A stretch of DNA of 64,000 bases from the NCBI GenBank assembly GCA_905235635.1, contig CAJOMC010000005.1, positions 14,264-78,263 on the forward strand, in the 5' to 3' direction. Below, piece after piece: positions 15,278 to 56,925 of the stretch. The position numbers were made by a program, and so were the translations under genes. The notes under the pieces are model-generated. The model saw only the letters and a list, made by a program, of their open reading frames with translations. It ran no database searches and had not been told where the DNA came from. This DNA comes from an uncultured Bacilli bacterium (lineage in GTDB: Bacteria; Bacillota_I; Bacilli_A; Izemoplasmatales; UBA1188). The stretch's first letter is position 1; each line of letters starts with the position of its first letter.

Positions 15278-15826
15278 ATGGAAGAAGAATTAAAGAAAGA
15301 ATTAAAATCAAACGAAGCCTTTGACAAAACCAAGGCAACCCTAAATAAGAAAATAGTACCACTTGGCACAACAATCATAATATATGGTGTCTTACTACTA
15401 GTTATTACCGCAATTACTGTATTTGTCGCAGTAAAAGCACCAGATTGGTGGAGACTCTTAATTGTTGGGCTAATTGATCTTGCTGCGCTATTTTTCTTTA
15501 TTGCGCCACTTGTATCTTATATAGTTACTATTAAAGAAGATAAGATATCTATGAAGAAAGATTTTGGACTATTTGCTGAAGATAGAGTTCAATCAGTTCA
15601 AACAGTAGAATTAAAGGATGTATTGAAATATAGAGTAATATTATCTGAAAAGAACTCAGATAATGAACCATATGCATCTAAGACAGCTAAAAAGAAATAT
15701 ATTGAATTTGATATGGCTAACGAAACAAATAGAAGACTATATGTTTCTATGTTAAGTAAGAAACAATTAGTAGGTCTATTAAAATATGTAAGAGAAGTTA
15801 CAAATCTAGAAATATCAAACGAGTAG
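15278..15826 (+). CDS. Hypothetical membrane protein (2 TM helices plus a cytoplasmic C-terminal domain)
   Basis: Two hydrophobic segments are visible (IIIYGVLLLVITAITVFVAV and LLIVGLIDLAALFFFIAPLV). I recognise no family motif. Confidence 0.5.
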   Translation: MEEELKKELKSNEAFDKTKATLNKKIVPLGTTIIIYGVLLLVITAITVFVAVKAPDWWRLLIVGLIDLAALFFFIAPLVSYIVTIKEDKISMKKDFGLFAEDRVQSVQTVELKDVLKYRVILSEKNSDNEPYASKTAKKKYIEFDMANETNRRLYVSMLSKKQLVGLLKYVREVTNLEISNE

Positions 15827-15830
15827 TATT

Positions 15831-16148
15831 ATGTTTAAAGTATATGGAAGCGCTATGTGTCCAGATTGTGTTTGGTTAAAACTCAATTTTGATACATATG
15901 GTATTGAATATGAATTTATAGATATTTTAGACTCGCTAAAAAATCTAAAAGAATTTTTAAAATTAAGAGATAACCTAGAGGTCTTTGATAGACTAAAAAA
16001 GATTGGAGATATAGGTTTGCCTGCGGTTGTAAGAGAAAATGGTGAAGTTTTTGTCGCATGGGAAAAATATATCACAGATGAACTAGGATTAAAACTTTTA
16101 GAGTTAGAAGATAAAAAATCCTGTTCCATTGACGGAAAAGGCTGCTAA
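15831..16148 (+). CDS. Glutaredoxin/NrdH-like thioredoxin-fold protein
   Basis: It has the N-terminal 'KVYGSAMCPDCVWLK' CxxC motif in beta-alpha context and a 'GLPAVV' cis-Pro-type loop. Confidence 0.6.
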   Translation: MFKVYGSAMCPDCVWLKLNFDTYGIEYEFIDILDSLKNLKEFLKLRDNLEVFDRLKKIGDIGLPAVVRENGEVFVAWEKYITDELGLKLLELEDKKSCSIDGKGC

Positions 16149-16160
16149 AACATCAAAATT

Positions 16161-16189
16161 TACCCACATTGATTTGTGGGTATTTTTTA
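16161..16189 (+). terminator. Rho-independent terminator
   Basis: TACCCACA / TGTGGGTA stem with a 6-nt loop, followed by TTTTTT. Confidence 0.8.
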
Positions 16190-16225
16190 TATATAAATAT
16201 AATATATATGTCAAATATTTATATA

Positions 16226-16256
16226 TTTACTTTTTAAGAATCTCTTAAAAAGTAAA
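16226..16256. repeat. Perfect 14-bp inverted repeat with 3-nt spacer
   Basis: TTTACTTTTTAAGA-atc-TCTTAAAAAGTAAA. It lies 26 nt upstream of the -35 element of the jet-like operon promoter. Confidence 0.8.
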
Positions 16257-16281
16257 ATTAAAAAATATTTTTAAAAAAGTG

Positions 16282-16310
16282 TTGAAAAATTTTAAATAAT
16301 TTATTATAAT
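16282..16310 (+). promoter_or_regulatory. Sigma-A promoter of the kleisin/KITE/SMC-like operon
   Basis: TTGAAA (16282-16287), a 17-nt spacer, then TATAAT (16305-16310). GGAGG lies at 16331-16335 and the ATG at 16341. Confidence 0.65.
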
Positions 16311-16340
16311 ACTTTTAGTTAAATATATGGAGGATATGAA

Positions 16341-17765
16341 ATGGAATTCAAAGACATCCTGCCTATGAATTTCTTCAATCTTTTCCAAAGCAAACACCGA
16401 GATCTCTATCTTGAGTCTCTCATCCGCGTATATGAGAGGTACGAAGTGGGGTCTATTTTGGGTATGCCTAAGGAAGACGCTCGAGACATAATTGAGTCAA
16501 TGCTTGAAGAAATGAATATAGGTTTAAATGAATTTATAGACGAGGAAGATGAAGAAGAAATCCCATCTTATAGAGAACTCGCAAATTACATCATAAGAAG
16601 GCTTGAGGTTACAGGTTGGGTAACGATTGACGTTACAAATGATTATCTTGAAATCCTAAACTTCACTGATAATGCAGTATCTATAACACTTGCTCTTCAG
16701 GAGATTAAAAAGAATGCAAGCTTCTCATTATTTGCGGATAACTTCACTCTCAATTCAAATGAAGAAGCATTTAGAGGATATATCTTTACGATTTATTCGC
16801 TTCTTAACTCAAAAACTTATGACTATGGTTTACTACTAAGCCAGGTTTATAAGAACACAATTAATTTTGTGAGAGAAATAAGAAAAGTTGACCACAAGTT
16901 AAAAGAGTTTATCCAGTTAATTGATACGAAAGATAATCTTAAAGAACTTGTTGAACTCTTAATGGATTATAAGAGTGAGGTAATGGATAAGGCATATTTC
17001 AAGCTAAAGACATTCGACAACATCAATAAATATAAGCTTCAAATTATTAAAAAGCTTGAATCACTTCAAGAAGATCCTGATGCGATGACTATTATTGCGA
17101 ATGACTATCTATTCCTCGCAGAGAATGATATCTCAAGAGCGCAATTCATTGCGAATAAACAGATAAATGACTGTATAGATATCTATAACTCACTTGGTCA
17201 AATCATGGATGAGATTGATAAGAAGAATAGAGACTATATTACTCAAACACTCTCTAAGGTAAAATATCTATTAAATGATTCAACTGATGTGCTTGGGGAA
17301 TTATATTCAATCACAAATTATTATTCTGATTTAGTTAAACAAGGTAGAACCGATAAGGCATTTAATGATATAAGAGATCTATTTGAACTAAATGTGAATA
17401 AATCACTAACAATCTCAAGTATCTCACAACCAAGAGGTACATATAAGAAAACAGAGAATAATGTCCTTATTAAAACTACTGTAGACTTTAGAGGAATAGT
17501 GAATAACCTATTCGAACAATATAAGTCACAATATAAGGAAGAAGATATTAAGAATTTACTCGATCAAACTATTGAAAAAGGCACTGAAAAGAGTATGGTT
17601 GATTATATCTCATATGATTGTGACAAGAAGGGTATATTAAAACTACTTTATATAATTGTATTTGTTTCATCATCTAGTGAATATGAATTACTTGATGAAG
17701 AATCATTTACCGAAACAAAATACTTCATTATTAGAAACTTTACATTAAAAAGGAGGGTAAACTAA
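16341..17765 (+). CDS. Hypothetical protein in the kleisin (JetA/MksF) position of a Wadjet/Mks-like operon
   Basis: It is 474 aa, the JetA size class. It is the first gene of a tightly coupled trio whose second and third genes look like JetB and JetC. The call rests on position and size; I recognise no diagnostic motif by eye. Confidence 0.5.
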   Translation: MEFKDILPMNFFNLFQSKHRDLYLESLIRVYERYEVGSILGMPKEDARDIIESMLEEMNIGLNEFIDEEDEEEIPSYRELANYIIRRLEVTGWVTIDVTNDYLEILNFTDNAVSITLALQEIKKNASFSLFADNFTLNSNEEAFRGYIFTIYSLLNSKTYDYGLLLSQVYKNTINFVREIRKVDHKLKEFIQLIDTKDNLKELVELLMDYKSEVMDKAYFKLKTFDNINKYKLQIIKKLESLQEDPDAMTIIANDYLFLAENDISRAQFIANKQINDCIDIYNSLGQIMDEIDKKNRDYITQTLSKVKYLLNDSTDVLGELYSITNYYSDLVKQGRTDKAFNDIRDLFELNVNKSLTISSISQPRGTYKKTENNVLIKTTVDFRGIVNNLFEQYKSQYKEEDIKNLLDQTIEKGTEKSMVDYISYDCDKKGILKLLYIIVFVSSSSEYELLDEESFTETKYFIIRNFTLKRRVN

Positions 17766-17766
17766 C

Positions 17767-18372
17767 ATGTTACTAGATGAATTAAAAGGCTTTACTAAAG
17801 ATGTTCAAGATAACTTTACTAAAATCGTAAATATCTTGCTTTCTTCAAACTATCTTTGTAAGGACAAAAAGGATAATTATAAGAACTATATATTTGTTCT
17901 TAACTATAAAGATTATTTTGTAGAATTATTTAATCTACTTGGTGATGAACTAATTATTAATAGAGAGCTAGGTGTAATCCAACTTAAGAATAACTACTTC
18001 CAAGGCAATCTTAAACTTAAGAAAGAAGAAACATTTATTCTATTAATCCTACGTATCCTATACCAAGAAAAATTAATTAACACTACTATGGAAAACATAG
18101 TCGCAGTAACTATTGATGATATTCATAATAAGTATCAATCATTTGGTTTTAAGAGGAAAATCTTTAAGACAGAACTTGTGTCATCTTTAAGACTATTCAA
18201 AAGATATAATCTAATTGATAACTTAGGTGAACTAGATAAATCATCAACACGCCTCATGATTTATCCATCAATTGCCCTACTTATACCTATGAATAATGTT
18301 GATGAAGTATATTCATATATAAGACAACTATCTGAAGGAAAGGAGGAAGAAGGAAATGAAGACATTAACTAA
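17767..18372 (+). CDS. DUF4194-like (JetB/MksE, KITE-type) protein
   Basis: It is 201 aa. The pattern 'F..IVNILLSSNYL...Y..YF.ELFNLLGDELIINRELGVIQLKN...LKKEETFILLILRILYQEKL' matches the layout I associate with DUF4194/MukE-like proteins. It starts 2 nt after the upstream stop. Confidence 0.65.
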   Translation: MLLDELKGFTKDVQDNFTKIVNILLSSNYLCKDKKDNYKNYIFVLNYKDYFVELFNLLGDELIINRELGVIQLKNNYFQGNLKLKKEETFILLILRILYQEKLINTTMENIVAVTIDDIHNKYQSFGFKRKIFKTELVSSLRLFKRYNLIDNLGELDKSSTRLMIYPSIALLIPMNNVDEVYSYIRQLSEGKEEEGNEDIN

Positions 18373-21300
18373 TATTAGATTAATTAACTGGCATTATTTT
18401 GATAATCAGACAATCCCAATCAAAAATAATACTTTACTTACGGGACAAAATGCTTCTGGTAAATCTACTATTCTCGATGCGATATCATTCGTATTAACCG
18501 CAGGAGATCAAAACTTTAACCTTGCGGCTAACGAAAAAGGCAAAAGAGATTTAAGAAGTTATTGTAAATGTAAACTCGGTTCACTTGATCAAGAATACTT
18601 AAGAGATTATGACCTATCAAGTCATATCTGTCTTGAATTCTTCTCTGAAAAACAAGAAAAATATTTCTGCCTAGGTGCAATTATTGATGTGACGGGCAAT
18701 GTCGCACCACCTAAGGTATTATTCTATATTATTGATTCACCACTCAAAGATGAATTCTTCTATTCAGAAGATGAAGAAATCTATAATATTCAAGAATTTA
18801 AGAAAAAGAGATTCACTCCATATATCTTCACCACAAGAAAAGAAGCTAAATCAGCATTTAGACAAAAGATGGGTGGTGTATCGGATAAATACTTTACACT
18901 CCTTCCAAAGGCTTTAGCTTTTAAGCCACTAACTGATGTTAAAGACTATATCTATAAACATCTTCTTGACGAAAAAGAAGTAAATGTAGAAAACATTAAA
19001 GACTCTATACGTTCATATAAGGACTTAGAAGCCATTCTTAAAGTGACAAAAAATAAAATCAAAGACCTTGAGACTATTAAGATATCATATGAAGAGCTTT
19101 CTAAACTTGAGGAAAATAAGAAGTTTTATGATTATGTTTTAAAAGACCTCACTTTAAAGAGCAAGCAAAATGAGATAAACGCTAAAACTAAGGATATTTC
19201 AGTACTAGAGAGAGAAAGAGAAGACTTAAGAAAGCAGATAAGAGATATTGATGAAAAGATAGCTAATTTAGATGATCAATCTAAAGCATTATATTCAACT
19301 CTTTCATCATCAAGTGAATTTAAAGCATCAGAACTTTATGATAAACAAATTGAATCACTTGATAGAGATATTCTCACTCTTACAGAAGAAAAACGTAAAT
19401 TTGACAGAAAGAAACTACAATATAGAGATACGGTTTTATTATTTAAAGAAAATGACAGTAATCTATATAATGAATTATCTAAGTTAGATTTAAACTTTGA
19501 AGATGAAGAATCTATTAAAGAAGCAATTATAGAAATTGATTCACTAAAGACTATAGTTGATCAAAAGAAAGCCCAACTTTCAAGAGAAGAAGGTATTATT
19601 CTAATAAAGAAAGATGAGGCAAAAGCTAAGGTTGAAGATGTATTCCAAAAACTTAAAACTTTATCTTCAAATGAAATTCCTTATAGAAAAGAAATCACAA
19701 TCTTAAGACAAAAGATGGAAGATTACCTAAAAGATTTATACAATGAATCAATTAGGGTTCATGTGCTCGCAGAAGTAATCGATGTAACCGATAAAACATG
19801 GCATAACACTATTGAGGACTTCCTTGCGAACCAAAGATTTGCGCTAATTGTTGACCCTAAATATTATGAAGATTGCCTGGATTGCTACCGCAAATATAAA
19901 TCAAATAATATCTATGGTGTGACACTTGTTGATACAAGAGAAGCTCTCAAGTTTAGAAACTATCAAGTAGGTTCTATCGCATCTATAATTGAAACTGATA
20001 ATCCAGATGCAAGAAACTACATTAACTATCTATGTGGCAATGTGATGATGGTTGATGATCCAAAAGATATAAGAAAGAAAGGTTATCAATCTGCACTTAC
20101 TGTTGATGGAATGCTATATAGAGGTCTTGGAATTAGATATTTAAACCCTAATACAGAAAAACCATTCATAGGTAGAAACGCAAGATCAGAACAAAGCTCA
20201 AGATATACTAGACTTGGTGAACAAGCAAAAGAAGAATTCCAAAATCTTTCAAAGAGACAATCTACTATTAAGGAATTACTTGATTTACTAGAATCTTTAA
20301 ACTTAGAAGATTTAAGAGTACTAGTTGCAAAAGTAATGGAATTAGATAGAGATAAGGTATTAATTGAAGAATTAAAAGAAAAGAAAAAGAGATTATCATT
20401 ATCATCACTTAATGATGTACGTGCTGAATATGAAAACCTAAAAGTTGAAATTAGAACTGAAGGCCAAAAACGTTCAACTAAAGAACAACTAATTGGTGCT
20501 AAGAACCAAGGTATTGAGTCATTAACTGAAGCAGTACTCCTATTAAATAATGAGATTAATGCATTATCGGCTGAAATATATAATATTGAAACTGAAAATA
20601 TCTCATATAAAAGTGATGCAGATAAAATCTATGACGAAGAAAGAAAATCTGGTAAGAAAGAAAAAGACATCTTTATTAATGTAGAAGCAATAATCAAGGA
20701 TCACCAACAAATTCATACTAATTATTTATCTAGATTAAGTATCGCAGAAGCTAATTATGCATCTAAATATAATAGACCATTCTCTACAGGCTTTGATGCC
20801 GCAAAAGATTACCTTGATGAACTCGATAAACTGGTTACTAGTGAATTAGTAAAATATGAAGGAAAGGTAAGAGAGGCTAGAGAAGAAGCTGAAAAACTAT
20901 TCAAGGAAGATTTCTTATCTAAACTTAAGAGTTATATCTTAGAAGCCCAAGACGAAATAGGAAAGATTAATGAAACCCTTAATAAGATTCAATTTGGTAG
21001 AGATAAATATGAATTTATTTTCCCTAAATCTAAAGAGTTTGGAGCTATCTATAATATGATTGTGGATGAAGGTGCAGGAGAACTTGGTTATACAATCTTC
21101 AGTATGGACTTTGAAGAAAAATATCAAAAAGAATTAGATGAACTCTTTGATCATTTATCTCAAGATGAAGAAAATTCTATGGGTGCATTAAATAAATACA
21201 CTGATTATAGAACTTATATGGACTATGATATCAAAGTTACATCTGGTCAAGATGTCTTCTACTTCTCAAATATTAATAAAGAAAAATCCGGTGGTGAAAC

Positions 21301-21592
21301 ACAAATTCCATTCTATGTGGCAATACTCGCATCATTCGTTAGATTATTCGATAAAGCACAAAAGAGTGGACTTGATGATTCAATCGGACTAATCCTCTTT
21401 GATGAGGTATTCGATAAGATGGATAACGCTAGAACTGATGCGATGATGGAATTCATCTCTAATCTAGATGTTCAAATCTTACTCGCTTGTCCTCCTCAAA
21501 AGATGGATTCACTCTCTAAACATACTGAGACATCAATCGCAGTAGTTAGAGAAGATAAACATGCTAGTTGTATCTCGATAAGAGACAAATAG
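18356..21592 (+). CDS. SMC-like ATPase (JetC/MksB-like)
   Basis: It has an N-terminal 'INWHYFDNQ...LLTGQNASGKSTILDA' (Walker A) followed by about 900 aa of heptad-rich sequence. The C terminus has 'KSGGETQIPFYV' (signature) and 'LILFDEVFDKMD' (Walker B). It overlaps the upstream gene by 17 nt. Confidence 0.8.
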   Translation: MKTLTNIRLINWHYFDNQTIPIKNNTLLTGQNASGKSTILDAISFVLTAGDQNFNLAANEKGKRDLRSYCKCKLGSLDQEYLRDYDLSSHICLEFFSEKQEKYFCLGAIIDVTGNVAPPKVLFYIIDSPLKDEFFYSEDEEIYNIQEFKKKRFTPYIFTTRKEAKSAFRQKMGGVSDKYFTLLPKALAFKPLTDVKDYIYKHLLDEKEVNVENIKDSIRSYKDLEAILKVTKNKIKDLETIKISYEELSKLEENKKFYDYVLKDLTLKSKQNEINAKTKDISVLEREREDLRKQIRDIDEKIANLDDQSKALYSTLSSSSEFKASELYDKQIESLDRDILTLTEEKRKFDRKKLQYRDTVLLFKENDSNLYNELSKLDLNFEDEESIKEAIIEIDSLKTIVDQKKAQLSREEGIILIKKDEAKAKVEDVFQKLKTLSSNEIPYRKEITILRQKMEDYLKDLYNESIRVHVLAEVIDVTDKTWHNTIEDFLANQRFALIVDPKYYEDCLDCYRKYKSNNIYGVTLVDTREALKFRNYQVGSIASIIETDNPDARNYINYLCGNVMMVDDPKDIRKKGYQSALTVDGMLYRGLGIRYLNPNTEKPFIGRNARSEQSSRYTRLGEQAKEEFQNLSKRQSTIKELLDLLESLNLEDLRVLVAKVMELDRDKVLIEELKEKKKRLSLSSLNDVRAEYENLKVEIRTEGQKRSTKEQLIGAKNQGIESLTEAVLLLNNEINALSAEIYNIETENISYKSDADKIYDEERKSGKKEKDIFINVEAIIKDHQQIHTNYLSRLSIAEANYASKYNRPFSTGFDAAKDYLDELDKLVTSELVKYEGKVREAREEAEKLFKEDFLSKLKSYILEAQDEIGKINETLNKIQFGRDKYEFIFPKSKEFGAIYNMIVDEGAGELGYTIFSMDFEEKYQKELDELFDHLSQDEENSMGALNKYTDYRTYMDYDIKVTSGQDVFYFSNINKEKSGGETQIPFYVAILASFVRLFDKAQKSGLDDSIGLILFDEVFDKMDNARTDAMMEFISNLDVQILLACPPQKMDSLSKHTETSIAVVREDKHASCISIRDK

Positions 21593-21608
21593 AATTCCCT
21601 TCCCTTGA

Positions 21609-21645
21609 GACAAGGAACTTTTAAAAAGTTTCTTGTCTTTTCTTT
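21609..21645 (+). terminator. Rho-independent terminator after the SMC-like gene
   Basis: A 12-bp stem (GACAAGGAACTT / AAGTTTCTTGTC, one G-U pair) has a 6-nt loop and is followed by TTTTCTTT. Confidence 0.8.
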
Positions 21646-21681
21646 ATTTAATTTTTTTATTTTAGATATAAAATAATAATT

Positions 21682-23067
21682 ATGAAAAAAGTAGTAGATT
21701 TAACTGAAGGTAATCTATTTAAAAAGATATTAATATTCGCACTTCCCATAATGGCATCTGGTATGCTTCAATTATTCTATAATGCCGCAGACTTAATTGT
21801 ATGCGGAAAGTTTGGCACGGAGCACGCTATTGCCGCTGTATCTTCTACTACTGCCCTCATCAATTTATTAGTAAATTCATTTGTGGGATTATCAGTTGGT
21901 TCAAACGCCCTTATGGCGAGATCTCTTGGAGAAAAGAATAATGAAAAAGGTAATAGAATTGCCTATACATCACTCATTATCGCATTAGTTGGTGGCGTCC
22001 TTGTAGGATCTTTTGGTTTTATATTCTGTAGGAAGTTTCTTGAATGGATGGGCACTACAAGTGATGTAATTGATTTATCTACCGAATATTTAAGAATATA
22101 TTTCTTAGGTACACCATTTTCATTCCTTTTTAACTTTGGCGCAGCTCTTTTAAGAGGTACTGGTGATTCAAGAAGACCGTCAATAGCGCTATTCTTAAGT
22201 GGTGGATTTAATATCGGATTAAACCTACTCCTTGTTGCGGTATTTAATATGGACGTTGAAGGAGTTGCGATTGCGACTATCGCATCACAGCTTATCTCTG
22301 CAGCAATAGTGTGGTTTATTATATTCACAAAGAGGACTCACTTCTTTACCTTCGAATTTAAGAATATTAAATTCTATTTTAATGAAGCTAAAGAAATATT
22401 TATTATTGGACTTCCGGTAGCACTTCAAGCTGCAACATTCTCTATATCTAATATACTAATTCAATCATCAGTTAATTCACTTGGTACTGATGTTGTATCA
22501 GGTAATGGAGCCGCAAACTCTATTGAAGGATTTATATTTGTCGCAATGGATTCTATAGGTCAAGCAACCCTCGCCTTTACAAGTGCGGCATATGGAGCCA
22601 AAAAGAAAGAAAATATTAAAACTATATTCAAATATTCTATCGTTCATGTTTTATTAATTTATTTGGCTGTATCTGGCCTTATCCTCATATTTAGAAAACC
22701 ACTATTATCTCTTTATTTATCTAATCCTGAAGCACTAATTTATGGTGAAGGAAAACTTGTGATATTTGCGACAACTTACATAACTTGTGGAATTATGAAC
22801 ATTACCGCAAACTCAATAAGAGGAATGAATCATTCTATTACACCTATGGTTGTGGTGCTCACAACTGTATGTGGTACAAGAATTCTATGGATATATACAC
22901 TATTTAAATTAGAGTATTTCCACAACCTAAATGGTTTATCATGGAGCTACCCTGTATCATGGATACTTGCGATAATAGTCGATTTAATTTTCTTTATCAT
23001 ATTCTATAAATATCTAAAGTTTAATAAAGAAGAAGCTGTCTCAGAACTTGAACCAAGCACAATATAA
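21682..23067 (+). CDS. MATE-family efflux transporter
   Basis: It is 461 aa with about 12 TM segments. It has the N-terminal 'L..G.L.KKIL.FALPIMASGMLQ..YNAADL' and 'RGTGDSRRP' motifs typical of MATE/NorM-like proteins. Confidence 0.85.
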   Translation: MKKVVDLTEGNLFKKILIFALPIMASGMLQLFYNAADLIVCGKFGTEHAIAAVSSTTALINLLVNSFVGLSVGSNALMARSLGEKNNEKGNRIAYTSLIIALVGGVLVGSFGFIFCRKFLEWMGTTSDVIDLSTEYLRIYFLGTPFSFLFNFGAALLRGTGDSRRPSIALFLSGGFNIGLNLLLVAVFNMDVEGVAIATIASQLISAAIVWFIIFTKRTHFFTFEFKNIKFYFNEAKEIFIIGLPVALQAATFSISNILIQSSVNSLGTDVVSGNGAANSIEGFIFVAMDSIGQATLAFTSAAYGAKKKENIKTIFKYSIVHVLLIYLAVSGLILIFRKPLLSLYLSNPEALIYGEGKLVIFATTYITCGIMNITANSIRGMNHSITPMVVVLTTVCGTRILWIYTLFKLEYFHNLNGLSWSYPVSWILAIIVDLIFFIIFYKYLKFNKEEAVSELEPSTI

Positions 23068-31784: not shown

Positions 31785-31816
31785 AAAAGAGAAGTTCGTT
31801 GAAGAACTTCTCTTTT
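31785..31816. terminator. Bidirectional terminator between convergent genes
   Basis: AAAAGAGAAGTTC / GAACTTCTCTTTT form a 13-bp perfect stem with a 6-nt loop and A/T runs on both sides. Confidence 0.8.
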
Positions 31817-34610
31817 ACTTATCTTTCCTGCCGTTTAATACATAAACAGAAGGATGATCATATTTATTGTTTATTTCCTTAATAAGCGTTTTATAGCGAG
31901 TCTTGTAGTCATAAATGAATGCATTTTTCTCAAATTTATAACTATTAATTGAATCCTTTCCAGCTTTAAGTATTGGTCCGTATGCATTTTTTGATAAAGA
32001 GTAAACTATATCATTTTTTTCATTTAGTGCGGAACTAAATTCATCGAAATCATCTATGATAGCTTTAGTATAAGAATCCATACATTGCTTTAACGCGATT
32101 ATACTATCATCGAATTCATTCTTTGAATATAAATTATTATTGTCTAAAACTTGTTTATAATAATTAATTGTTTCAATTGATGAATTATTTATTTCATCAA
32201 TACTATTTAAAGTATTAGAAGAAACATCTTCCATACTTAAAAATTGAAGCTTATTTTCATTATCAATACTTTCAATTTTAGTAGTTAATTCTTGATGTAG
32301 AGAATTAATCTCTTTTTGATGTCTTAAAGAAGTCCTTCTATATGATATATTATAATCATCATCGTTATATTTTGAAGAAATACGTCTAATCTCATCAATT
32401 ACAGGAGTTAATTCTTTATCAAGAATATTATCGATTCTTTCTAGACCATTATTGTAATCTGATTGATACTTATTATATATATCATTAAAATTGAAAGAAT
32501 CTTTTGAGTTAAGAGTATTTACTATACTATCTATTTCAGATTCAGCAATTTTAATGGATTTTGTCGCTTCAAGAAGAGAGTGATTATGTATTTTATTGGC
32601 GATGTCTAAATTATCAATGTAAACTTCTATTCTTTCATCTATATCGCTTCTTGAGTAATTGATATCAGTATCTTTCTTAATGATTTTTATAATATCATTC
32701 ACGCTGTCGTTATAGTCAGTTAATATTTCATTTGTTTCTTCGGTCATTCTATCTTTAAAAGAAGCAGGTTTTTCTCTAACGGCATCTAGTTTTAAAAGAA
32801 TTGCGTTTAGTCTTATTTCTTTAATTTGATTTAGTTCTTTTATTTCATCAAGGAACTTACCCACTAAAAAGTTGATCCTATATTCAGAGAAACCATTGGA
32901 TACATTTTTTTCCTTGGTTAATATCTCAATTCTTAGTTCTAACTCTTTTTGAGCGAGTTCGATAAGTTCACTCGCAGATGTTATCCTATGTTTCATAAAA
33001 GCATTTAAGAATTCAAAACTAGATAGTGCAAATAACTCCTCTCTTGCCTTAGTCTGTTCTAAAAGAGCGGTTTGAGAGCTTTTAATAATATCAAGTGATT
33101 TCTTATTAACGTTATATGAATTAATTATCTTTTCGTATTCAAATTTTTTAGGAAGAAGATCTATGTCTCTAGATTTATGTGCTAAAGAATTTGATAAGAA
33201 GAGGATGGCTTTTTGGATGACATACGATCTATGAACTTTATTTAATTTAATCTCATAGTCTAAAACTGCTTGGAATTTTAAGTCAGAGGCATAGATTTCA
33301 TTTCTATAAATATTAAATAATTTATAGTTTTCATTTGCGCTTTTAATAAGATTAAAGATTTCTCTTTCCATGTTTACTTTAGCGACATTTAGGCTAAAAT
33401 TTAATTCATTTAGTAAGAGAGAAGATTTATATTTGTATGTAATGAGAACTCTTTTTAAAGTGTCAAAAAGTTCTAATTGTTTAAGAGAGAATTCAAGTGT
33501 ATGTTTAAGCCTATTATCAACCGATTCCTCAAATAATAAATCTAATAAATCGCTATATTTTTTAAAGAATATGATGTTTTCGATGATAGCGGAGCCTTTA
33601 AATTTTTCATCCTTTATGAGTAATTTCTTAAATAAGTTTTGATTTCTGTATCTTAGAAGAAGTTCACGATATTCTTTTTCATTAGCTTCTTCTAAAGATA
33701 AATATTTTAAATAGAGATCGTGATGATATGATTTAAAGATTTCAGTAATACAGTTTTCTAGTTCCTCATCGTTAAAAGCATTCTCAAGTTTAATAAATAA
33801 TTTTTTGTTTAGAGGGTTTTCTTTAATTTCTTTTTTAATAAGCTTAAGAGTATTCTTTTTGCTTTCAAAGAAATCCTTCTTAAAACCTAATGTTTCTATA
33901 AGTATTCTCTCATATTTCTTAATCTCTTTATCTGACAATTCTTTAAACTCTTGATAGAGAGACTCTTGAGTTTCAACGTATTTATTTTTGATATCATTTT
34001 CTATTTTCTCAAGGTTTTCATATAGGAAGTTTTCATCATTTAATATATCTTTATATGAAAGCTGAGAAATATTATTACTATCTAACTCTTCCTTATATGC
34101 TTTATTATCTTCAATTAGTTTAATTTTATAGTCATTATATAATAAAGTATATAATTCTTGAAGTTCTTTAATTTTAGTTATAATACCTTCAAAATCAGCA
34201 CTTAAATGTTCATAGTAATTTTTAATAATGGATGAATATTGATCGAGGGATTTCCCTAAAACTTGGGAAATACTATCATTTGTGTTAATAGAAGAAGATT
34301 CAAGTTCTTTAGTTTTTAATACTAAACTTTCTATTTTTTCAAGAGTAGTATTGTGATAGTTATCTAAAGAAGTTTCAAGGGAATCTAGATTTTCAATCAT
34401 AAAATTCATAAGGTCATTTTTAATTAGATTTAGTGAATTAAAATATTCAACCTTTAAGTCTTTCATTTCATGTGTTAATCTATCATCTTGAGTTTCTATT
34501 TTTTCTTCAACACCTTTAATAAGTTCTTCAAGTGAAGAAACGTCTTCTTTAATTAAATCAAAAGAAGCCTTAGATTTTTCTAAGGTTACATATATTATTA
34601 ATTTCATCAT
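31815..34610 (-). CDS. Giant coiled-coil protein of unknown function (931 aa as tracked; the true 5' end is probably upstream, see 34570..34698)
   Basis: It is continuous heptad-rich, low-complexity, helical-looking sequence rich in E/K/N/I/L/S. I see no P-loop, signal peptide or TM segment by eye. Confidence 0.6.
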   Translation of the reverse strand: MMKLIIYVTLEKSKASFDLIKEDVSSLEELIKGVEEKIETQDDRLTHEMKDLKVEYFNSLNLIKNDLMNFMIENLDSLETSLDNYHNTTLEKIESLVLKTKELESSSINTNDSISQVLGKSLDQYSSIIKNYYEHLSADFEGIITKIKELQELYTLLYNDYKIKLIEDNKAYKEELDSNNISQLSYKDILNDENFLYENLEKIENDIKNKYVETQESLYQEFKELSDKEIKKYERILIETLGFKKDFFESKKNTLKLIKKEIKENPLNKKLFIKLENAFNDEELENCITEIFKSYHHDLYLKYLSLEEANEKEYRELLLRYRNQNLFKKLLIKDEKFKGSAIIENIIFFKKYSDLLDLLFEESVDNRLKHTLEFSLKQLELFDTLKRVLITYKYKSSLLLNELNFSLNVAKVNMEREIFNLIKSANENYKLFNIYRNEIYASDLKFQAVLDYEIKLNKVHRSYVIQKAILFLSNSLAHKSRDIDLLPKKFEYEKIINSYNVNKKSLDIIKSSQTALLEQTKAREELFALSSFEFLNAFMKHRITSASELIELAQKELELRIEILTKEKNVSNGFSEYRINFLVGKFLDEIKELNQIKEIRLNAILLKLDAVREKPASFKDRMTEETNEILTDYNDSVNDIIKIIKKDTDINYSRSDIDERIEVYIDNLDIANKIHNHSLLEATKSIKIAESEIDSIVNTLNSKDSFNFNDIYNKYQSDYNNGLERIDNILDKELTPVIDEIRRISSKYNDDDYNISYRRTSLRHQKEINSLHQELTTKIESIDNENKLQFLSMEDVSSNTLNSIDEINNSSIETINYYKQVLDNNNLYSKNEFDDSIIALKQCMDSYTKAIIDDFDEFSSALNEKNDIVYSLSKNAYGPILKAGKDSINSYKFEKNAFIYDYKTRYKTLIKEINNKYDHPSVYVLNGRKDK

Positions 34611-34698
34611 ATAGAGATTTTATATTTGATTTGAGGTTATCTTTGTAGCTTGAAAGAAGATCTAGAGTTTCATTTATTTTGTTTTCCAAATCACTCAT
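34570..34698 (-). CDS. 42-codon ORF, probably the displaced N terminus of the 931-aa coiled-coil gene (frame break)
   Basis: Its ATG overlaps the TAA of the upstream 1113-aa gene (TAATG). The peptide MSDLENKINETLDLLSSYKDNLKSNIKSLYDEINNI... has the same coiled-coil character. It overlaps the tracked start (34610) of the 931-aa ORF in another frame. Confidence 0.4.
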   Translation of the reverse strand: MSDLENKINETLDLLSSYKDNLKSNIKSLYDEINNICNLRKI

Positions 34699-37600
34699 TA
34701 TTTTTTCTCCATCTTGTCTTTAAATTCAGTGATTAAACTATTGATTCTATTTTCCATATTATTTAAAGAATCATTTAAATCTTCGTTAAGTTTTTCGTTT
34801 AATGAAGATAAGTGTTCTTTAAATGCGGAAATTGGAATAGAAACATTATCATATTTATTTAAAGTATCCGCAATAACATTATTAAACTTCTCCTCAAATT
34901 CGATTAAATTATCTGCCTTAAGATTCTCGTATTTTTCTATAATACTATTTTTCCTGTATTCAAACGAATCTTTTAATCTAATATTTTCAGAGTTAAGTTC
35001 GTCAAAATATGCGGCTTTATTTTGATCGTGGTCTATTATTCTTTTTTCGAGTTTATTCTTATTATCTTGTTTAAATGTTTCGATAGAATCCCAGAGCTTT
35101 AATGAATTATCTTTCATTAAATCGAAATATTTATTTCCTTCATCCAAGATCTTTTGTTTTTCTTCTTGGAAGTTGCCGTTTATATTTTCTATAACCCTAG
35201 ATAAATCTGTAGTTTTATCGTGAGATGAACTAATATTAGAAGCATTCTCTTGTTTCTTTTCGCCTATTCTTTCATCTCTTCTCTTAATATATGCTAAATA
35301 TGTAGAGTTAATAATATTTTTAATATCTTCATTACCAGTTTCTCTTTGTTTGATTATTCTAGTCTTTAAAGTATTAATGTGGTTAATTTTTTCTTTATAA
35401 TCATTTTCAATAGTTTTTACTGTCCTAAGATATAGTTCCTGATAATCAGATAATCTCTTTGCTAGTCTTTCTGAATCGTTTTCTTTAGCTATATCAATTG
35501 TATCTAAATTATCAAGGAATGGAGAAATATCAGAAGAAGTTTTTTCTATCTCTTTAACTAATAAGTATTCTTTTAAATCTTCTAATACAAAGACGTTTCT
35601 AATATATTCACTATATGAGATTGGTGCATTTTTCTTTAATTCTTTATTAAATGCCTTTTTAAGCATCTTAACACTTTCATTTGCACTTCTTAAAAGATAT
35701 TTATATGCTTGATGTAAAGAAGAAGTGTTTTTAGATTTTATAAATAGTGATCTAAAAGTTTTATAGTCTTTATATAATTCCTTTTTATTGTATGCTTTAG
35801 TAAATGATTTGTTGTATATTTTATTTAGAATATTATCTAAATCAATTACTAAAGTATCAAGTATATAATATACCTGATTTAATATTTGGTCTGTATCAAC
35901 CTTTTTCACGTATTCATTAAATTCAGTTTTAGGTGAAAGATCAAGTAATGAAGACTTACATTTATCTAGAGCCATAACAAATAAAGCATGTGCTCTTTTT
36001 TCATTAACAAGTGATGCTCTATATTCTTCTATTACTTTAGCCTGGCTCTCTTTAATGGATTCCCTAATATGATCCATCTTAGATTTAAGAGATTCTTTTT
36101 CGGTTCTAATGAATGGATATATACGTTTCTTAGCCTCATCTGATTCCTTAAGAACTTTTATCTTATTAGCCTCAAAGTTATTTCTCTCTATTTCTAATAC
36201 ATTATTTAAATAACGCATTTTATTTGTGAGTTGTTCATCGAGGATTTCTATACCTTTATTATATCTTTCCATTAGATCTTCAAATTGTTCATTTCTTGAG
36301 ATTGCTTCAAGATATGCAATTTCTAAAATCTTTTGAATTTGAATTTGAGTCTTTAGTTTTTCTTCAGCATCTTCATCTCTATCTTTAATTTTTACTATTT
36401 TAGAGATGTTTTCAAGCCTAGTATATGCAGCCATATAGTCGCATTTAAGCATTTCTATATTTTTGTTTGTATCTAGTATCTTTACTTCATTATTTAATCT
36501 ATTTTTAACAAGAAGAACATCAATCTCATAGTCTTTTTTAAGCAACACTAGATCGCACTTGGAATTCATGATTTCAAGTTCTGCTTTTGCGGTTTCTTCA
36601 AGTTCTTTTCTCTTGATGTCATATTCTATTTTCTTTATTTCTGTTTCATCATCAATAGTTAAATATTGTCTTCTTAAATCAAGGAGAGAAAGTCTTAATA
36701 ATTCATCGTTTGTTAGTAACTTGAATGATAATAAATCTAATTCTTTATTTTGATTAACATTATCTTCAATATAAGTAAGATATTCTTTTAAAGAAACTAT
36801 CTTAGCATCGAGACCGAGACTTTCATAGCTTTTCTTGTAATAATAAAGTAAATCTTTAGTTCTTTTAGCATCTTCAGTTAAATTACCTAGTGCGTTCTTT
36901 TGATAATTAAGAATTTCAATAATAGATGAGAAGGTATTAAGCATTAGCGATTTACCATTATCTAAGAAATTATTATAAGATTCAAATAGATGGTCTCTTG
37001 CATCTTTTAATATAGAAGAATATCTATTTAACTCTTCATTTTGTTTATTTAGTAAATCGAGTTCAATAGAATATTTGATTAATAGTTTTTGATTATTAGT
37101 GGTAATGAAGTTAATTAAAGATGATTTTTGTTCAAGAAGAAGAGATTTTTCTTTATTAGTAGCTTTCTCTATTAATGAATCATAATATTTGTTTAAAGCC
37201 TCTATATCAGCATCTTTTTTCTTATTTAATTCCTCAAGACCTTTCTTGATTGATTCACATTCATCAGAGTTATCTTTTTTATTTTTAATAATTATATTAA
37301 TAAATGTATTAAAAGAAGACCTAATAGAATCAAATTTAGAGACATATTTACTTGTGTCACTTAAAAGCTTTTTAGCATCTTCAAAACACTCTATGTAGAT
37401 ATCAGAAAGATGACGAGATGACTCAATAGAAGTAAGTGTAGCATTTTCTGTTAAAGAAGAAGTATAGTTTTTGAATTCTTCAAGGAATGTGATTAGCTTC
37501 TTAATGTCTAAAGCGTGCTTTTCTGCGTTCTTATAGAATTCAAGGTTCTTCAAAATACTTTCTTTGGCATTAAAAATAGTATAAGTATAAACTTCCTCTT

Positions 37601-38039
37601 CCTTATCTATTTTGTTTTCGATTTGTCTTTTGTGAGCGAGAGGCCTTGATTTTGCCTCATATAATGTTCTAACAAAAGAATGCCTAATACGTTCAAGAAG
37701 AACTTCTTCAAATTCGATTCTTGATTCTAAGTCTTGTTTCTCTTTGTAATATTCATCTAACAAAGCAATAAGCTCAACATTTGCTTTTTCATTTAAAGCT
37801 TCGTAATCCTTAAAATATTTTTGAAGAATGATAACCCTATTTTCATCATGTTTTTGAAGTCTTGTCTCATAATCTTCATAAATATCTCTATAATCGTCAC
37901 TTTGCTTTTCTTTTAAATCAAAAAGATCCTTCTCAAGAGATGAGATGGTTTTGTCAAAATATCTTTCTACTTCGGCAGGGCTATAACCAAAACCCTCTAG
38001 TAGATTCATGTATACAGATTTTTTCTCGTTGTTATTCAT
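34698..38039 (-). CDS. Giant coiled-coil protein of unknown function (1113 aa)
   Basis: It is heptad-rich helical sequence along its whole length, with no enzymatic motif, signal peptide or TM segment seen. It is the first gene of a two-gene minus-strand unit. Confidence 0.6.
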   Translation of the reverse strand: MNNNEKKSVYMNLLEGFGYSPAEVERYFDKTISSLEKDLFDLKEKQSDDYRDIYEDYETRLQKHDENRVIILQKYFKDYEALNEKANVELIALLDEYYKEKQDLESRIEFEEVLLERIRHSFVRTLYEAKSRPLAHKRQIENKIDKEEEVYTYTIFNAKESILKNLEFYKNAEKHALDIKKLITFLEEFKNYTSSLTENATLTSIESSRHLSDIYIECFEDAKKLLSDTSKYVSKFDSIRSSFNTFINIIIKNKKDNSDECESIKKGLEELNKKKDADIEALNKYYDSLIEKATNKEKSLLLEQKSSLINFITTNNQKLLIKYSIELDLLNKQNEELNRYSSILKDARDHLFESYNNFLDNGKSLMLNTFSSIIEILNYQKNALGNLTEDAKRTKDLLYYYKKSYESLGLDAKIVSLKEYLTYIEDNVNQNKELDLLSFKLLTNDELLRLSLLDLRRQYLTIDDETEIKKIEYDIKRKELEETAKAELEIMNSKCDLVLLKKDYEIDVLLVKNRLNNEVKILDTNKNIEMLKCDYMAAYTRLENISKIVKIKDRDEDAEEKLKTQIQIQKILEIAYLEAISRNEQFEDLMERYNKGIEILDEQLTNKMRYLNNVLEIERNNFEANKIKVLKESDEAKKRIYPFIRTEKESLKSKMDHIRESIKESQAKVIEEYRASLVNEKRAHALFVMALDKCKSSLLDLSPKTEFNEYVKKVDTDQILNQVYYILDTLVIDLDNILNKIYNKSFTKAYNKKELYKDYKTFRSLFIKSKNTSSLHQAYKYLLRSANESVKMLKKAFNKELKKNAPISYSEYIRNVFVLEDLKEYLLVKEIEKTSSDISPFLDNLDTIDIAKENDSERLAKRLSDYQELYLRTVKTIENDYKEKINHINTLKTRIIKQRETGNEDIKNIINSTYLAYIKRRDERIGEKKQENASNISSSHDKTTDLSRVIENINGNFQEEKQKILDEGNKYFDLMKDNSLKLWDSIETFKQDNKNKLEKRIIDHDQNKAAYFDELNSENIRLKDSFEYRKNSIIEKYENLKADNLIEFEEKFNNVIADTLNKYDNVSIPISAFKEHLSSLNEKLNEDLNDSLNNMENRINSLITEFKDKMEKK

Positions 38040-56851: not shown

Positions 56852-56925
56852 AAATTGACTTTCATTTTTTAATCTTATACAATCTAATTGGATTTAAAAA
56901 TAAAATGACTATTATGAGGTTTCAT

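What the first reader, a model, noticed from the sequence alone, without database searches (positions are those of the whole stretch)
16341..21592. Self-contained kleisin/KITE/SMC-like (JetABC/MksFEB-like) operon with no JetD/MksG nuclease gene
Three genes of 474, 201 and 1078 aa are translationally coupled (a 2-nt gap, then a 17-nt overlap). They have their own TTGAAA-17-TATAAT promoter and are bracketed by strong terminators.

The third protein has the SMC/JetC layout: Walker A 'GQNASGKST', about 900 aa of coiled coil, then 'SGGETQ' and 'LILFDEVFDKMD'. The second has the size and pattern of DUF4194 (JetB/MksE). The first sits in the kleisin position. Gene order and sizes match jetA-jetB-jetC of Wadjet.

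The operon ends at a terminator 89 nt before an unrelated MATE gene. I see no Toprim/DUF2220 (JetD/MksG) gene anywhere in the 64 kb. Wadjet plasmid restriction depends on JetD, so three readings are possible:
- a nuclease-free, condensin-like Mks system in a low-GC streamlined genome;
- a Wadjet derivative whose effector is encoded elsewhere;
- a variant in which an unrecognised domain of the divergent 474-aa protein supplies the effector function.
Basis: partly seen in the sequence, partly recalled or inferred. Interest (0 to 1): 0.65.

Follow-up and report, generated by a model that had tools for sequence, protein, structure and literature searches.

The report
Nuclease-free Wadjet SMC operon, vertically inherited
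This is a real three-gene SMC-type DNA-motor operon (jetA-jetB-jetC of the Wadjet plasmid-defence family) that has lost its DNA-cutting partner JetD and is inherited like a core housekeeping gene across at least 80 species of Mycoplasma-related bacteria, so it probably now folds the host chromosome.

Summary
Window 16341-21592 (+) holds three translationally coupled genes with their own promoter and flanking terminators. Profiles identify them, full length, as type I Wadjet JetA (kleisin), JetB (KITE) and JetC (SMC-like ATPase).

No JetD was found in the 64-kb window, in 10 kb beyond its 3' end, or in 80 species-level relatives. These come from Izemoplasmatales, Acholeplasmatales/Anaeroplasmataceae and allied uncultured Bacilli.

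In those relatives jetABC is intact and the ATPase motifs are invariant. The operon sits in core housekeeping synteny: dnaK operon…rsmE-mtaB, or ychF…sepF-ileS with sepF overlapping the jetC stop. JetC distances track those of neighbouring housekeeping proteins (r = 0.83-0.93).

The JetD-less clade is monophyletic (50/50 bootstraps). Four of its five nearest outgroup representatives are canonical jetABCD, one inside a defence island.

Best reading: a Wadjet system domesticated by one ancestral JetD loss, now a MksBEF/MukBEF-like chromosomal loop extruder.

- A hidden effector domain in the 474-aa protein is rejected.
- Whether Smc-ScpAB co-exists is untested.

This is a new variant of a known kind and a natural test case for the hypothesis that condensins arose from Wadjet.

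The parts
16161..16182 (.). Upstream intrinsic-terminator hairpin with T-runs on both sides (bidirectional). It insulates the operon from the nrdH-like gene upstream.
   Evidence: 8-bp stem with 4 GC pairs; dG -14.6 kcal/mol, z -4.3, and 0 of 200 shuffles fold as well.
16282..16310 (+). Sigma-70-type promoter-like site TTGAAA-17 nt-TATAAT, 31 nt upstream of the jetA ATG.
   Evidence: 11 of 12 positions match, the best site in 15700-21900. This is a consensus match only; no transcription data exist.
16341..17765 (+). jetA: the kleisin subunit (474 aa), made of an N-terminal winged helix plus helical bundle, a disordered linker and a C-terminal winged helix.
   Evidence: - Pfam JetA PF18982: E 2.5e-59, covering profile positions 2-434 of 434.
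- PADLOC JetA1: E 2.3e-79.
- AF2 model pLDDT 73.7.
- Foldseek top hits are Wadjet-II JetA (E 7e-7), MukF and E. coli JetA.
17767..18372 (+). jetB: the KITE subunit (201 aa, DUF4194/MukE-like). It starts 1 nt after the jetA stop.
   Evidence: - Pfam DUF4194: E 1.7e-24.
- PADLOC JetB1: E 1.1e-55, full length.
- A profile of clade and canonical JetB hits solved JetB 8as8_C at E 7e-4.
- Junction sequence confirmed.
18356..21592 (+). jetC: the SMC-like ABC ATPase (1078 aa). Its parts are a head with Walker A G30-T38, coiled-coil arms, a hinge around residues 451-600, the signature S978-Q983 and Walker B/D-loop L1012-D1023. It overlaps jetB by 17 nt.
   Evidence: - PADLOC JetC1: E 5.8e-282, aligned 1-1073 to profile 1-1083 of 1097.
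- Pfam AAA_29 and SbcC_Walker_B match; the SMC_hinge match (21.7 bits) falls just below its 22.5-bit cutoff.
- Solved E. coli JetC matches at E 4e-15.
- Motifs are invariant in 81-82 of 82 clade members.
21607..21639 (+). Downstream intrinsic terminator: a 15-bp stem followed by a T-run. It ends the operon before the MATE gene at 21682.
   Evidence: One search found the site; dG -17 kcal/mol, z -4.8, and 0 of 200 shuffles fold as well.

Best explanation
The locus is a domesticated, nuclease-free type I Wadjet.

**Assembly (inferred by homology to solved JetABC and MukBEF).** JetA (kleisin), JetB (KITE dimer) and JetC (SMC-like ATPase dimer) form a dimer-of-motors SMC complex. The complex loads on DNA and uses ATP hydrolysis to extrude loops.

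**What is shown here.** The JetD Toprim nuclease that converts this motor into a plasmid-cutting machine was lost once, in an ancestor of the Izemoplasmatales and Acholeplasmatales/Anaeroplasmataceae-type Bacilli. The remaining trio has since been kept under purifying selection as a vertically inherited core locus.

**What is inferred.** The complex now works on the host chromosome in organisation or segregation, like P. aeruginosa MksBEF or MukBEF. It may be coordinated with cell division, because sepF is fused to the operon in one large sub-clade.

In this window the operon is an autonomous transcription unit with its own promoter, coupled translation and flanking terminators.
For: 1. **Identity.** All three proteins give full-length matches to JetA, JetB and JetC.
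2. **JetD is absent.** Two JetD profiles, of 3 and 7 seeds including the nearest outgroup JetDs, find nothing in the window or in 1.76 Mb of window plus fetched loci. The best non-seed E-values are 0.46 and 0.72, against 1e-146 or better for the seeds. Pfam annotation of the 10 kb beyond the window's 3' end also shows no JetD.
3. **The trio is conserved without JetD.** 80 species-level loci were fetched and 77 carry all three genes; the other three are cut by contig ends. None has JetD. 70 loci have at least 1.5 kb downstream and 54 have at least 5 kb.
4. **The context is housekeeping.** About 26 loci have hrcA-grpE-dnaK-dnaJ-(padR)-jetABC-rsmE-mtaB…era-recO-glyS. About 36 have ychF-jetABC-sepF…ileS, with sepF overlapping the jetC stop. 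No relative was found on IMG/VR viral contigs.
5. **JetC co-diverges with its neighbours.** Pairwise JetC distances correlate with those of DnaJ, DnaK, MtaB, YchF and IleS (Pearson 0.83-0.93). JetC evolves at a comparable rate, and the synteny contexts map onto separate JetC clades.
6. **Purifying selection.** Walker A K36, the SGGE signature and Walker B D-E are invariant in 81-82 of 82 members. The heads and hinge are the most conserved regions.
7. **One ancestral loss.** The clade is monophyletic in 50 of 50 bootstraps. It is separated by a sharp score gap, from 745 bits or more inside the clade to 574 bits or less outside it. Four of the five nearest outgroup representatives are canonical jetABCD, and one of them lies between McrBC-like, GmrSD and SNF2 genes.
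Against: - There are no functional data. A chromosomal role is inferred only from inheritance pattern, gene neighbourhood and precedent.
- Whole genomes could not be searched. An unlinked JetD or another effector, and the presence or absence of Smc-ScpAB, remain untested.
- The hydrophobic JetC 'larynx' residue that plugs into JetD in E. coli (F919, aligned to window F915) is retained as F or L in 81 of 82 clade members. The JetD+ outgroups also carry F or L there, and the alignment to E. coli is weak, so this does not discriminate.
- In the window itself the operon lies in a third context (gap-DUF1292-x-nrdH-like | jetABC | MATE). It is terminator-insulated and shows no link to a division gene.
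- Canonical JetABCD may also extrude chromosomal DNA, so a chromosomal role alone would not distinguish this system from a defence system.
Confidence: 0.6

Rival explanations
1. The trio still polices extrachromosomal circular DNA, but without cutting it. JetABC would sense small circles by complete loop extrusion. It would then compact, silence or mis-segregate them, much as Smc5/6 silences viral episomes.
For: - The proteins are still clearly type I Wadjet by sequence.
- The JetC larynx hydrophobic residue and neighbouring motif remain conserved.
- SMC-based, non-nucleolytic restriction is known for Smc5/6 (PMC10586767).
Against: - In tested JetABCD systems, a point mutation of the JetD Toprim glutamate abolishes plasmid restriction (bioRxiv 10.1101/2022.10.04.510915).
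- Defence systems are normally patchy and island-borne. This one is a vertically inherited, syntenic core locus that co-diverges with housekeeping genes.
- It is operonic with sepF in about 36 species.
Confidence: 0.15
2. This is a complete defence system whose effector is encoded elsewhere in the genome. The effector could be JetD or a different nuclease recruited in trans.
For: - Only about 10 kb on each side could be inspected in relatives, and about 74 kb of a genome of unknown size for the window's organism.
- The JetD-docking hydrophobic residue is retained.
- An independent type I jetABC (P0132) lacks JetD but is followed by an RmuC-family gene, so effector exchange may happen.
Against: - None of the 80 species has JetD within the flanks read, about 1.0 Mb of flank in total.
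- In all seven JetD+ comparators, jetD directly abuts or overlaps jetC.
- No gene other than housekeeping genes is conserved next to jetABC across the clade.
- A JetD profile search returned no named hit from these taxa among its top 120 hits. This is weak evidence.
Confidence: 0.12
3. The operon is a decaying remnant of a Wadjet system that lost JetD and no longer has a function.
For: Loss of one subunit is a common first step in the decay of a defence system.
Against: - All three ORFs are intact in 77 of 80 species, and the other three are cut by contig ends.
- The catalytic motifs are invariant in 81-82 of 82 members.
- JetC diverges at a housekeeping-like rate across an order-level radiation of reduced genomes.
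Confidence: 0.02
4. The 474-aa protein carries an unrecognised effector (nuclease) domain that replaces JetD.
For: None beyond the protein's sequence divergence from solved JetA. A sequence search against solved structures found no hit.
Against: - Pfam JetA covers residues 30-472 against profile positions 2-434 of 434.
- Its length matches JetA of JetD+ systems, which are 457-474 aa.
- The AF2 model is all-alpha apart from two winged-helix hairpins. Its best structural matches are JetA and MukF over the full length, with no nuclease fold.
Confidence: 0.02

Closest known systems
Type I Wadjet / JetABCD (E. coli GF4-3, P. aeruginosa PA14 and Bacillus systems; PDB 8as8, 8bfn, 8dk1)
   Same: The three protein families are the same: JetA PF18982/DUF5716, JetB DUF4194 and a JetC SMC-like ATPase. 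Gene order, overlapping genes and subunit sizes also match. PADLOC classifies all three as JetA1, JetB1 and JetC1.
   Different: - There is no JetD Toprim nuclease.
- The locus is not in a defence island or on a mobile element.
- It is vertically inherited as a core syntenic locus across at least 80 species.
- Its JetC shares only about 30-33% identity with the nearest JetD-linked JetC.
MksBEF of Pseudomonas aeruginosa (nuclease-free Mks condensin)
   Same: Both are three-subunit kleisin/KITE/SMC complexes without MksG/JetD. MksBEF is thought to derive from JetABCD by nuclease loss, contributes to chromosome organisation and backs up Smc-ScpAB (PMC10586767).
   Different: - The sequence family differs. 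Here the kleisin is type I JetA, and the KITE scores below the Pfam MksE cutoff (19.7 bits against 27).
- MksBEF is described as scattered across the tree by HGT. This clade is vertically inherited and monophyletic.
- Function is untested here.
MukBEF of gamma-proteobacteria
   Same: Both have the SMC-kleisin-KITE architecture with a dimerising kleisin. The predicted JetA fold matches MukF. MukBEF is lineage-wide and vertically inherited, and is hypothesised to descend from a Wadjet-like ancestor.
   Different: - MukBEF has replaced Smc-ScpAB and is highly diverged from Wadjet.
- Here the proteins are still recognisable as type I Wadjet.
- Whether Smc-ScpAB is retained is unknown.
- The Pfam MukB match is not significant (E 0.042).
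Smc-ScpAB
   Same: Both have the general SMC, kleisin and KITE logic, and JetC has an SMC-type hinge signal.
   Different: JetC scores 58.6 bits on TIGR02168 against a cutoff of 567. The match covers the coiled coil only. The partners are JetA and JetB, not ScpA and ScpB.

Membership tests
Wadjet type I (JetABCD) | JetA kleisin of the DUF5716/PF18982 family | tested here: met
   Pfam E 2.5e-59 over the full length, and PADLOC JetA1 E 2.3e-79. The predicted fold matches solved JetA and MukF.
Wadjet type I (JetABCD) | JetB KITE subunit (DUF4194) | tested here: met
   Pfam E 1.7e-24 and PADLOC JetB1 E 1.1e-55. A JetB profile hits solved JetB at E 7e-4.
Wadjet type I (JetABCD) | JetC SMC-like ATPase with intact Walker A, signature and Walker B motifs and a hinge | tested here: met
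   PADLOC JetC1 E 5.8e-282. Solved JetC matches at E 4e-15. The motifs are invariant in the clade.
Wadjet type I (JetABCD) | JetD Toprim/aCAP nuclease encoded in the operon, directly after jetC | tested here: not met
   No JetD was found in the window, in 10 kb beyond its 3' end, or in 80 related species. It is present directly after jetC in all 7 JetD+ comparators.
Wadjet type I (JetABCD) | Defence-system genomics: patchy distribution, defence islands or mobile elements | tested here: not met
   The synteny is housekeeping, JetC co-diverges with DnaJ, DnaK, YchF and IleS (r 0.83-0.93), and IMG/VR gave no hits. In contrast, outgroup L090 lies in a defence island.
Wadjet type I (JetABCD) | Restricts circular plasmids by cleavage | not testable with these tools
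   This needs transformation or cleavage assays.
Nuclease-free Mks/Muk-type condensin (MksBEF, MukBEF) | Three-gene kleisin-KITE-SMC operon without MksG/JetD | tested here: met
Nuclease-free Mks/Muk-type condensin (MksBEF, MukBEF) | Sequence membership in the MksE or MukB Pfam families | tested here: not met
   MksE PF21980 scores 19.7 bits against a cutoff of 27. MukB PF04310 scores 14 bits against 23. By sequence the proteins belong to the type I Jet families.
Nuclease-free Mks/Muk-type condensin (MksBEF, MukBEF) | Lineage-wide vertical inheritance, as for MukBEF | tested here: met
   The clade is monophyletic in 50 of 50 bootstraps. Synteny contexts map onto JetC sub-clades, and JetC co-diverges with its neighbours.
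Nuclease-free Mks/Muk-type condensin (MksBEF, MukBEF) | Acts in chromosome organisation or segregation | not testable with these tools
   Only indirect hints exist: sepF overlaps the jetC stop in about 36 species.
Smc-ScpAB | SMC equivalog (TIGR02168/02169) with ScpA and ScpB partners | tested here: not met
   TIGR02168 scores 58.6 bits against a cutoff of 567, and TIGR02169 scores 23.4 against 729. The partners are JetA and JetB.
SbcC/Rad50/RecN | Zinc hook or RecN architecture, with an Mre11/SbcD partner and no kleisin or KITE | tested here: not met
   Only the generic SbcC_Walker_B and AAA_29 head motifs match. A weak hinge signal and kleisin and KITE partners are present, and there is no SbcD or Mre11 neighbour. 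Rad50 NF003034 scores 9.3 bits against a cutoff of 700.

The most novel reading that the evidence does not exclude
In the Izemoplasmatales and Acholeplasmatales/Anaeroplasmataceae-type Bacilli, the JetD-less JetABC has become the principal chromosome-segregation SMC complex, replacing or functionally superseding Smc-ScpAB. It would be wired to cell division through its operon fusion with sepF. That would make it a second, independent and much younger MukBEF-like takeover, caught while the proteins are still recognisably Wadjet.
Probability: 0.12. Interest if true: 0.9.

Novelty: new variant of a known kind. Interest (0 to 1): 0.62.

Why it matters
SMC researchers have proposed, without a clear natural intermediate, that MukBEF and MksBEF arose when a Wadjet plasmid-defence system lost its nuclease and was domesticated for chromosome maintenance.

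This clade looks like that intermediate:
- The proteins are still unmistakably type I Wadjet.
- The nearest outgroups are JetD-containing.
- A single ancestral JetD loss explains the pattern.
- Inheritance since then has been strictly vertical and core-gene-like, in reduced genomes.

The clade includes a cultured member, Anaeroplasma bactoclasticum ATCC 27112, and complete genomes, so the hypothesis can be tested directly. One such test is to add an outgroup JetD back to the clade's JetABC.

There is also a practical point. Public annotation labels these genes 'Wadjet anti-phage system protein'. Defence-system censuses will therefore either miscount them or discard them as incomplete.

Tried and rejected
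**Hidden effector domains.** Rejected. All three proteins are covered end to end by the Jet profiles, have the same lengths as in JetD+ systems, and the JetA model is a kleisin.

**RecN/SbcC/Rad50 or canonical SMC identity for the 1078-aa protein.** Rejected.

**SMC-ScpAB presence.** Every route failed:
- Motif and long-ORF scans of all loci found none, but these cover only about 1-2% of each genome.
- The window and its contig extension show none.
- Papers and supplements on Izemoplasma, Hujiaoplasma, Acholeplasma and Bacilli-wide KO tables do not mention smc, scpA or scpB.
- One look-up of the window's first ORF, meant to reach the 5' contig extension, found nothing on record.

**JetD-docking surface as a discriminator.** Inconclusive. 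E. coli F919 aligns with window F915, which is F or L in both the JetD-less clade and the JetD+ outgroups. The alignment to E. coli is weak, and the JetB N-terminus is variable everywhere. E. coli JetB also has about 30 extra N-terminal residues that are absent from Firmicute JetB, even in JetD+ systems.

**JetD profile search of the protein universe.** No named hit from clade taxa appeared, but only the top 120 hits are listed, so this is not decisive.

**Source names for the window's own proteins.** None are recorded.

**Petrushenko 2011 (PMC3179180).** Not held in the library.

**Sequence-only PDB search with JetA.** No hit, either with the single sequence or with a profile.

Full report
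**Observation**

- jetA ends with TAA at 17763-17765.
- The jetC ATG at 18356 lies 17 nt inside jetB, behind AGGAGG.
- A TTGAAA-17-TATAAT site at 16282-16310 is the best promoter-like match in the region, at 11 of 12 positions.
- Hairpin terminators lie at 16161-16182 and 21607-21639. They fold at -14.6 and -17 kcal/mol (z -4.3 and -4.8), and none of 200 shuffles folds as well.
- The MATE gene starts 89 nt after the jetC stop.

The operon is a self-contained transcription unit in a ~30% GC chromosome segment. Its GC content does not differ from the neighbouring sequence.

**Identity of the proteins**

- The 474-aa protein matches Pfam JetA (PF18982) at E 2.5e-59 over the whole profile, and PADLOC JetA1 at 2.3e-79.
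- The 201-aa protein matches DUF4194 at 1.7e-24 and PADLOC JetB1 at 1.1e-55.
- The 1078-aa protein matches PADLOC JetC1 at 5.8e-282, aligned 1-1073 to profile positions 1-1083 of 1097. It also matches AAA_29 and SbcC_Walker_B, and it has a weak SMC-hinge signal.
- It is not a canonical SMC (TIGR02168: 58.6 bits against a cutoff of 567) and not Rad50 or RecF.
- Solved E. coli and P. aeruginosa JetC are its only PDB sequence relatives. A JetB profile finds solved JetB.
- An AlphaFold model of the 474-aa protein (pLDDT 73.7) shows an N-terminal winged helix plus helical bundle, a disordered linker and a C-terminal winged helix. Its best structural matches are Wadjet-II JetA (E 7e-7), MukF and E. 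coli JetA.

The trio is therefore a type I Wadjet JetA/JetB/JetC set.

**No JetD**

Canonical type I loci on plasmids from Rossellomorea, Butyrivibrio and Cohnella have jetD directly after jetC.
- A JetD profile built from these three found nothing in the six-frame translation of the window (best E 0.46).
- A 7-seed profile that adds the JetDs of the nearest outgroup systems found nothing in 1.76 Mb of window plus all fetched loci. The best non-seed E was 0.72, against 1e-146 or better for the seeds.
- The 10 kb beyond the window's 3' end on the same 100.6-kb MAG contig holds addA, transporters and other genes, but no JetD.
- The rest of the window is ordinary housekeeping: RecD2, GreA, GAPDH, glycerol genes, RuvB, QueA, Tgt, FtsZ, MutS2, TruB, Tig, Lon and AddAB.

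**Relatives**

A search of about 5.8 billion proteins found JetC homologues at 40-60% identity. Almost all come from Izemoplasmatales, Acholeplasmatales, Mycoplasmatota or 'Bacillales' MAGs.

A scan of one genome per species returned 80 loci (80 species) from the same groups. They include cultured Anaeroplasma bactoclasticum ATCC 27112 and complete Izemoplasma-type chromosomes.
- 77 of the 80 loci carry jetA, jetB and jetC; the other three are cut by contig ends.
- None carries JetD.
- 70 loci have at least 1.5 kb downstream of jetC and 54 have at least 5 kb. About 1.0 Mb of flank was read in total.

Subunit sizes are the same as in JetD+ systems.

**Context and inheritance**

Clustering the flanking ORFs shows two conserved housekeeping settings.
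- **Context A** (about 26 loci): Izemoplasmatales plus the 59%-identity group to which the window belongs. The order is hrcA-grpE-dnaK-dnaJ-(padR)-jetABC-rsmE-mtaB-…-phoH-ybeY-cdd-era-recO-glyS-dnaG.
- **Context B** (about 36 or more loci): Anaeroplasmataceae, Acholeplasmatales and RFN20-like lineages. The order is ppa…ychF-jetABC-sepF-…-ileS.

In context B the downstream gene was confirmed as SepF by Pfam (E 3e-11). Its start overlaps the jetC stop, with a median offset of -3 nt. The window's genome has a third arrangement.

Further evidence for vertical inheritance under selection:
- No relative occurs on IMG/VR viral contigs.
- JetC pairwise distances track those of neighbouring DnaJ (r 0.93), DnaK (0.92), MtaB (0.83), YchF (0.91) and IleS (0.93). 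Mean JetC divergence (0.38) lies between those of DnaJ (0.31) and MtaB (0.43).
- The two synteny contexts form separate JetC clades.
- Walker A K36, the SGGE signature and Walker B D1016-E1017 are invariant in 81-82 of 82 members. The heads and hinge are the most conserved regions.

This is the signature of a vertically inherited, selected core gene, not of a mobile defence module or a decaying remnant.

**Origin**

An exhaustive HMMER search of 1.84 billion cluster representatives shows the clade as five representatives at 40% identity or more (745 bits or more). The score then drops sharply to 574 bits and 33% identity.

The five nearest outgroup representatives are:
- P0129, P0130, P0133 and P0135: canonical jetA-jetB-jetC-jetD. 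P0129 lies between McrBC-like, AAA_15, GmrSD and SNF2 genes, a typical defence island.
- P0132: no JetD, but followed by an RmuC-family gene.

The most divergent in-clade representative (P0128) again lacks JetD and sits among housekeeping genes.

In a tree of 91 JetC sequences, the JetD-less clade is monophyletic in 50 of 50 bootstraps. One ancestral JetD loss is the parsimonious history.

- **Reading 1, a nuclease-free condensin-like system:** best supported.
- **Reading 2, an effector encoded elsewhere:** cannot be excluded, because only ~10-kb flanks of the relatives and ~74 kb of the source contig were readable. It would, however, require an unlinked effector in every one of at least 80 species, whereas jetD abuts jetC in all seven JetD+ comparators. 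A JetD profile search returned named hits from Clostridia, Paenibacillus, Butyrivibrio and Haloplasma contractile. None came from the clade's taxa, but only 120 hits are listed.
- **Reading 3, a hidden effector domain in JetA:** rejected.

**The JetD-docking site**

In E. coli, the JetD aCAP domain docks on the JetC larynx, where F919 inserts into a pocket (bioRxiv 10.1101/2023.11.03.565488). That residue aligns with window F915.

Position 915 is F or L in 81 of 82 clade members, and also F or L in the JetD+ outgroups. The segment is the least conserved part of the C-terminal head, apart from the C-terminal tail. This test is inconclusive.

**Mechanism**

- *Shown:* an intact, selected kleisin/KITE/SMC-ATPase trio without a nuclease, inherited vertically in housekeeping operons.
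- *Inferred from solved JetABC and MukBEF:* it forms a kleisin-bridged dimer of SMC motors that extrudes DNA loops using ATP.
- *Inferred from inheritance, context and precedent:* its substrate is the host chromosome, as for P. aeruginosa MksBEF. It may be coordinated with division, given the sepF fusion in context B.

Whether it supplements or replaces Smc-ScpAB is unknown.

**Relation to what is known**

[quoted passage not shown] MksBEF is described as scattered across the tree by horizontal transfer. [quoted passage not shown]

Five literature searches found no description of a JetD-less type I JetABC, or of any Wadjet or Mks system, as a conserved feature of Izemoplasmatales, Acholeplasmatales or Anaeroplasmataceae. 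NCBI annotates these genes as 'Wadjet anti-phage system protein JetA family protein'.

I therefore class this as a new variant of a known kind: a type I Wadjet derivative domesticated lineage-wide.

**Limits**

- There are no functional data.
- No whole-genome scan for JetD or Smc-ScpAB was possible.
- The trees are neighbour-joining trees on identity-based distances.
- The promoter call is a consensus match only.
- The taxon labels are those of the submitters.

Noticed in passing
window 31815-38039 (- strand): Two adjacent giant ORFs (931 and 1113 aa) lie in the lowest-GC stretch of the window (24-28%). They are extremely K/E/N/L-rich and look like coiled coils. They have no Walker A motif and no significant Pfam hit. 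They are not SMC, and their function is unknown.
   Followed up: partly
window 59216-60571 (+), directly upstream of addB-like 60571-62826 and addA: A 451-aa ORF with no Pfam hit has a stop that overlaps the addB start, so it appears to be co-operonic with addAB.
   Followed up: no
L093 4021-10909 and L094 2051-8939 (JGI metagenomes; L093 is on a 4.38-Mb contig): This is an independent type I jetA-jetB-jetC with 33% JetC identity to the window. It has no JetD, is preceded by an AlkZ-like gene and is followed after about 170 nt by an RmuC-family gene, with no terminator detected between them. It may be an effector swap or a second JetD loss.
   Followed up: partly
L037-L088 (context B loci), e.g. 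L060 12285-12629; L044 = Anaeroplasma bactoclasticum ATCC 27112: In about 36 Anaeroplasmataceae/Acholeplasmatales-type species, sepF (Pfam E 3e-11) starts on top of the jetC stop codon and is followed by ileS. The jetABC operon is thus fused to the tail of the division gene cluster.
   Followed up: partly
L004, L012-L034 etc. (context A loci), e.g. L028 1040-1438: A 116-aa PadR-family regulator abuts the jetA start in about 20 Izemoplasmatales species. It is a candidate dedicated regulator of the operon and is absent from the window.
   Followed up: no
P0420 (protein hit, Haloplasma contractile): Haloplasma contractile is a wall-less Bacilli lineage that branches near this group. It encodes a JetD with 52% identity to the JetD of the nearest outgroup system, which may help date the JetD loss.
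   Followed up: no
window JetC residues 915-923 (window 21098-21124): The larynx motif around the residue that docks JetD in E. coli stays conserved in the JetD-less clade: F915 is F or L in 81 of 82 members, and F919 and Y923 are invariant. This surface may bind something else or be structural.
   Followed up: partly
window 56905-57522 (+) / L089 6345-7034: A DUF3800 protein sits between lon and a cellulase-family gene. The precomputed gene call is 229 aa, longer than the 205-aa ATG ORF in the window.
   Followed up: no
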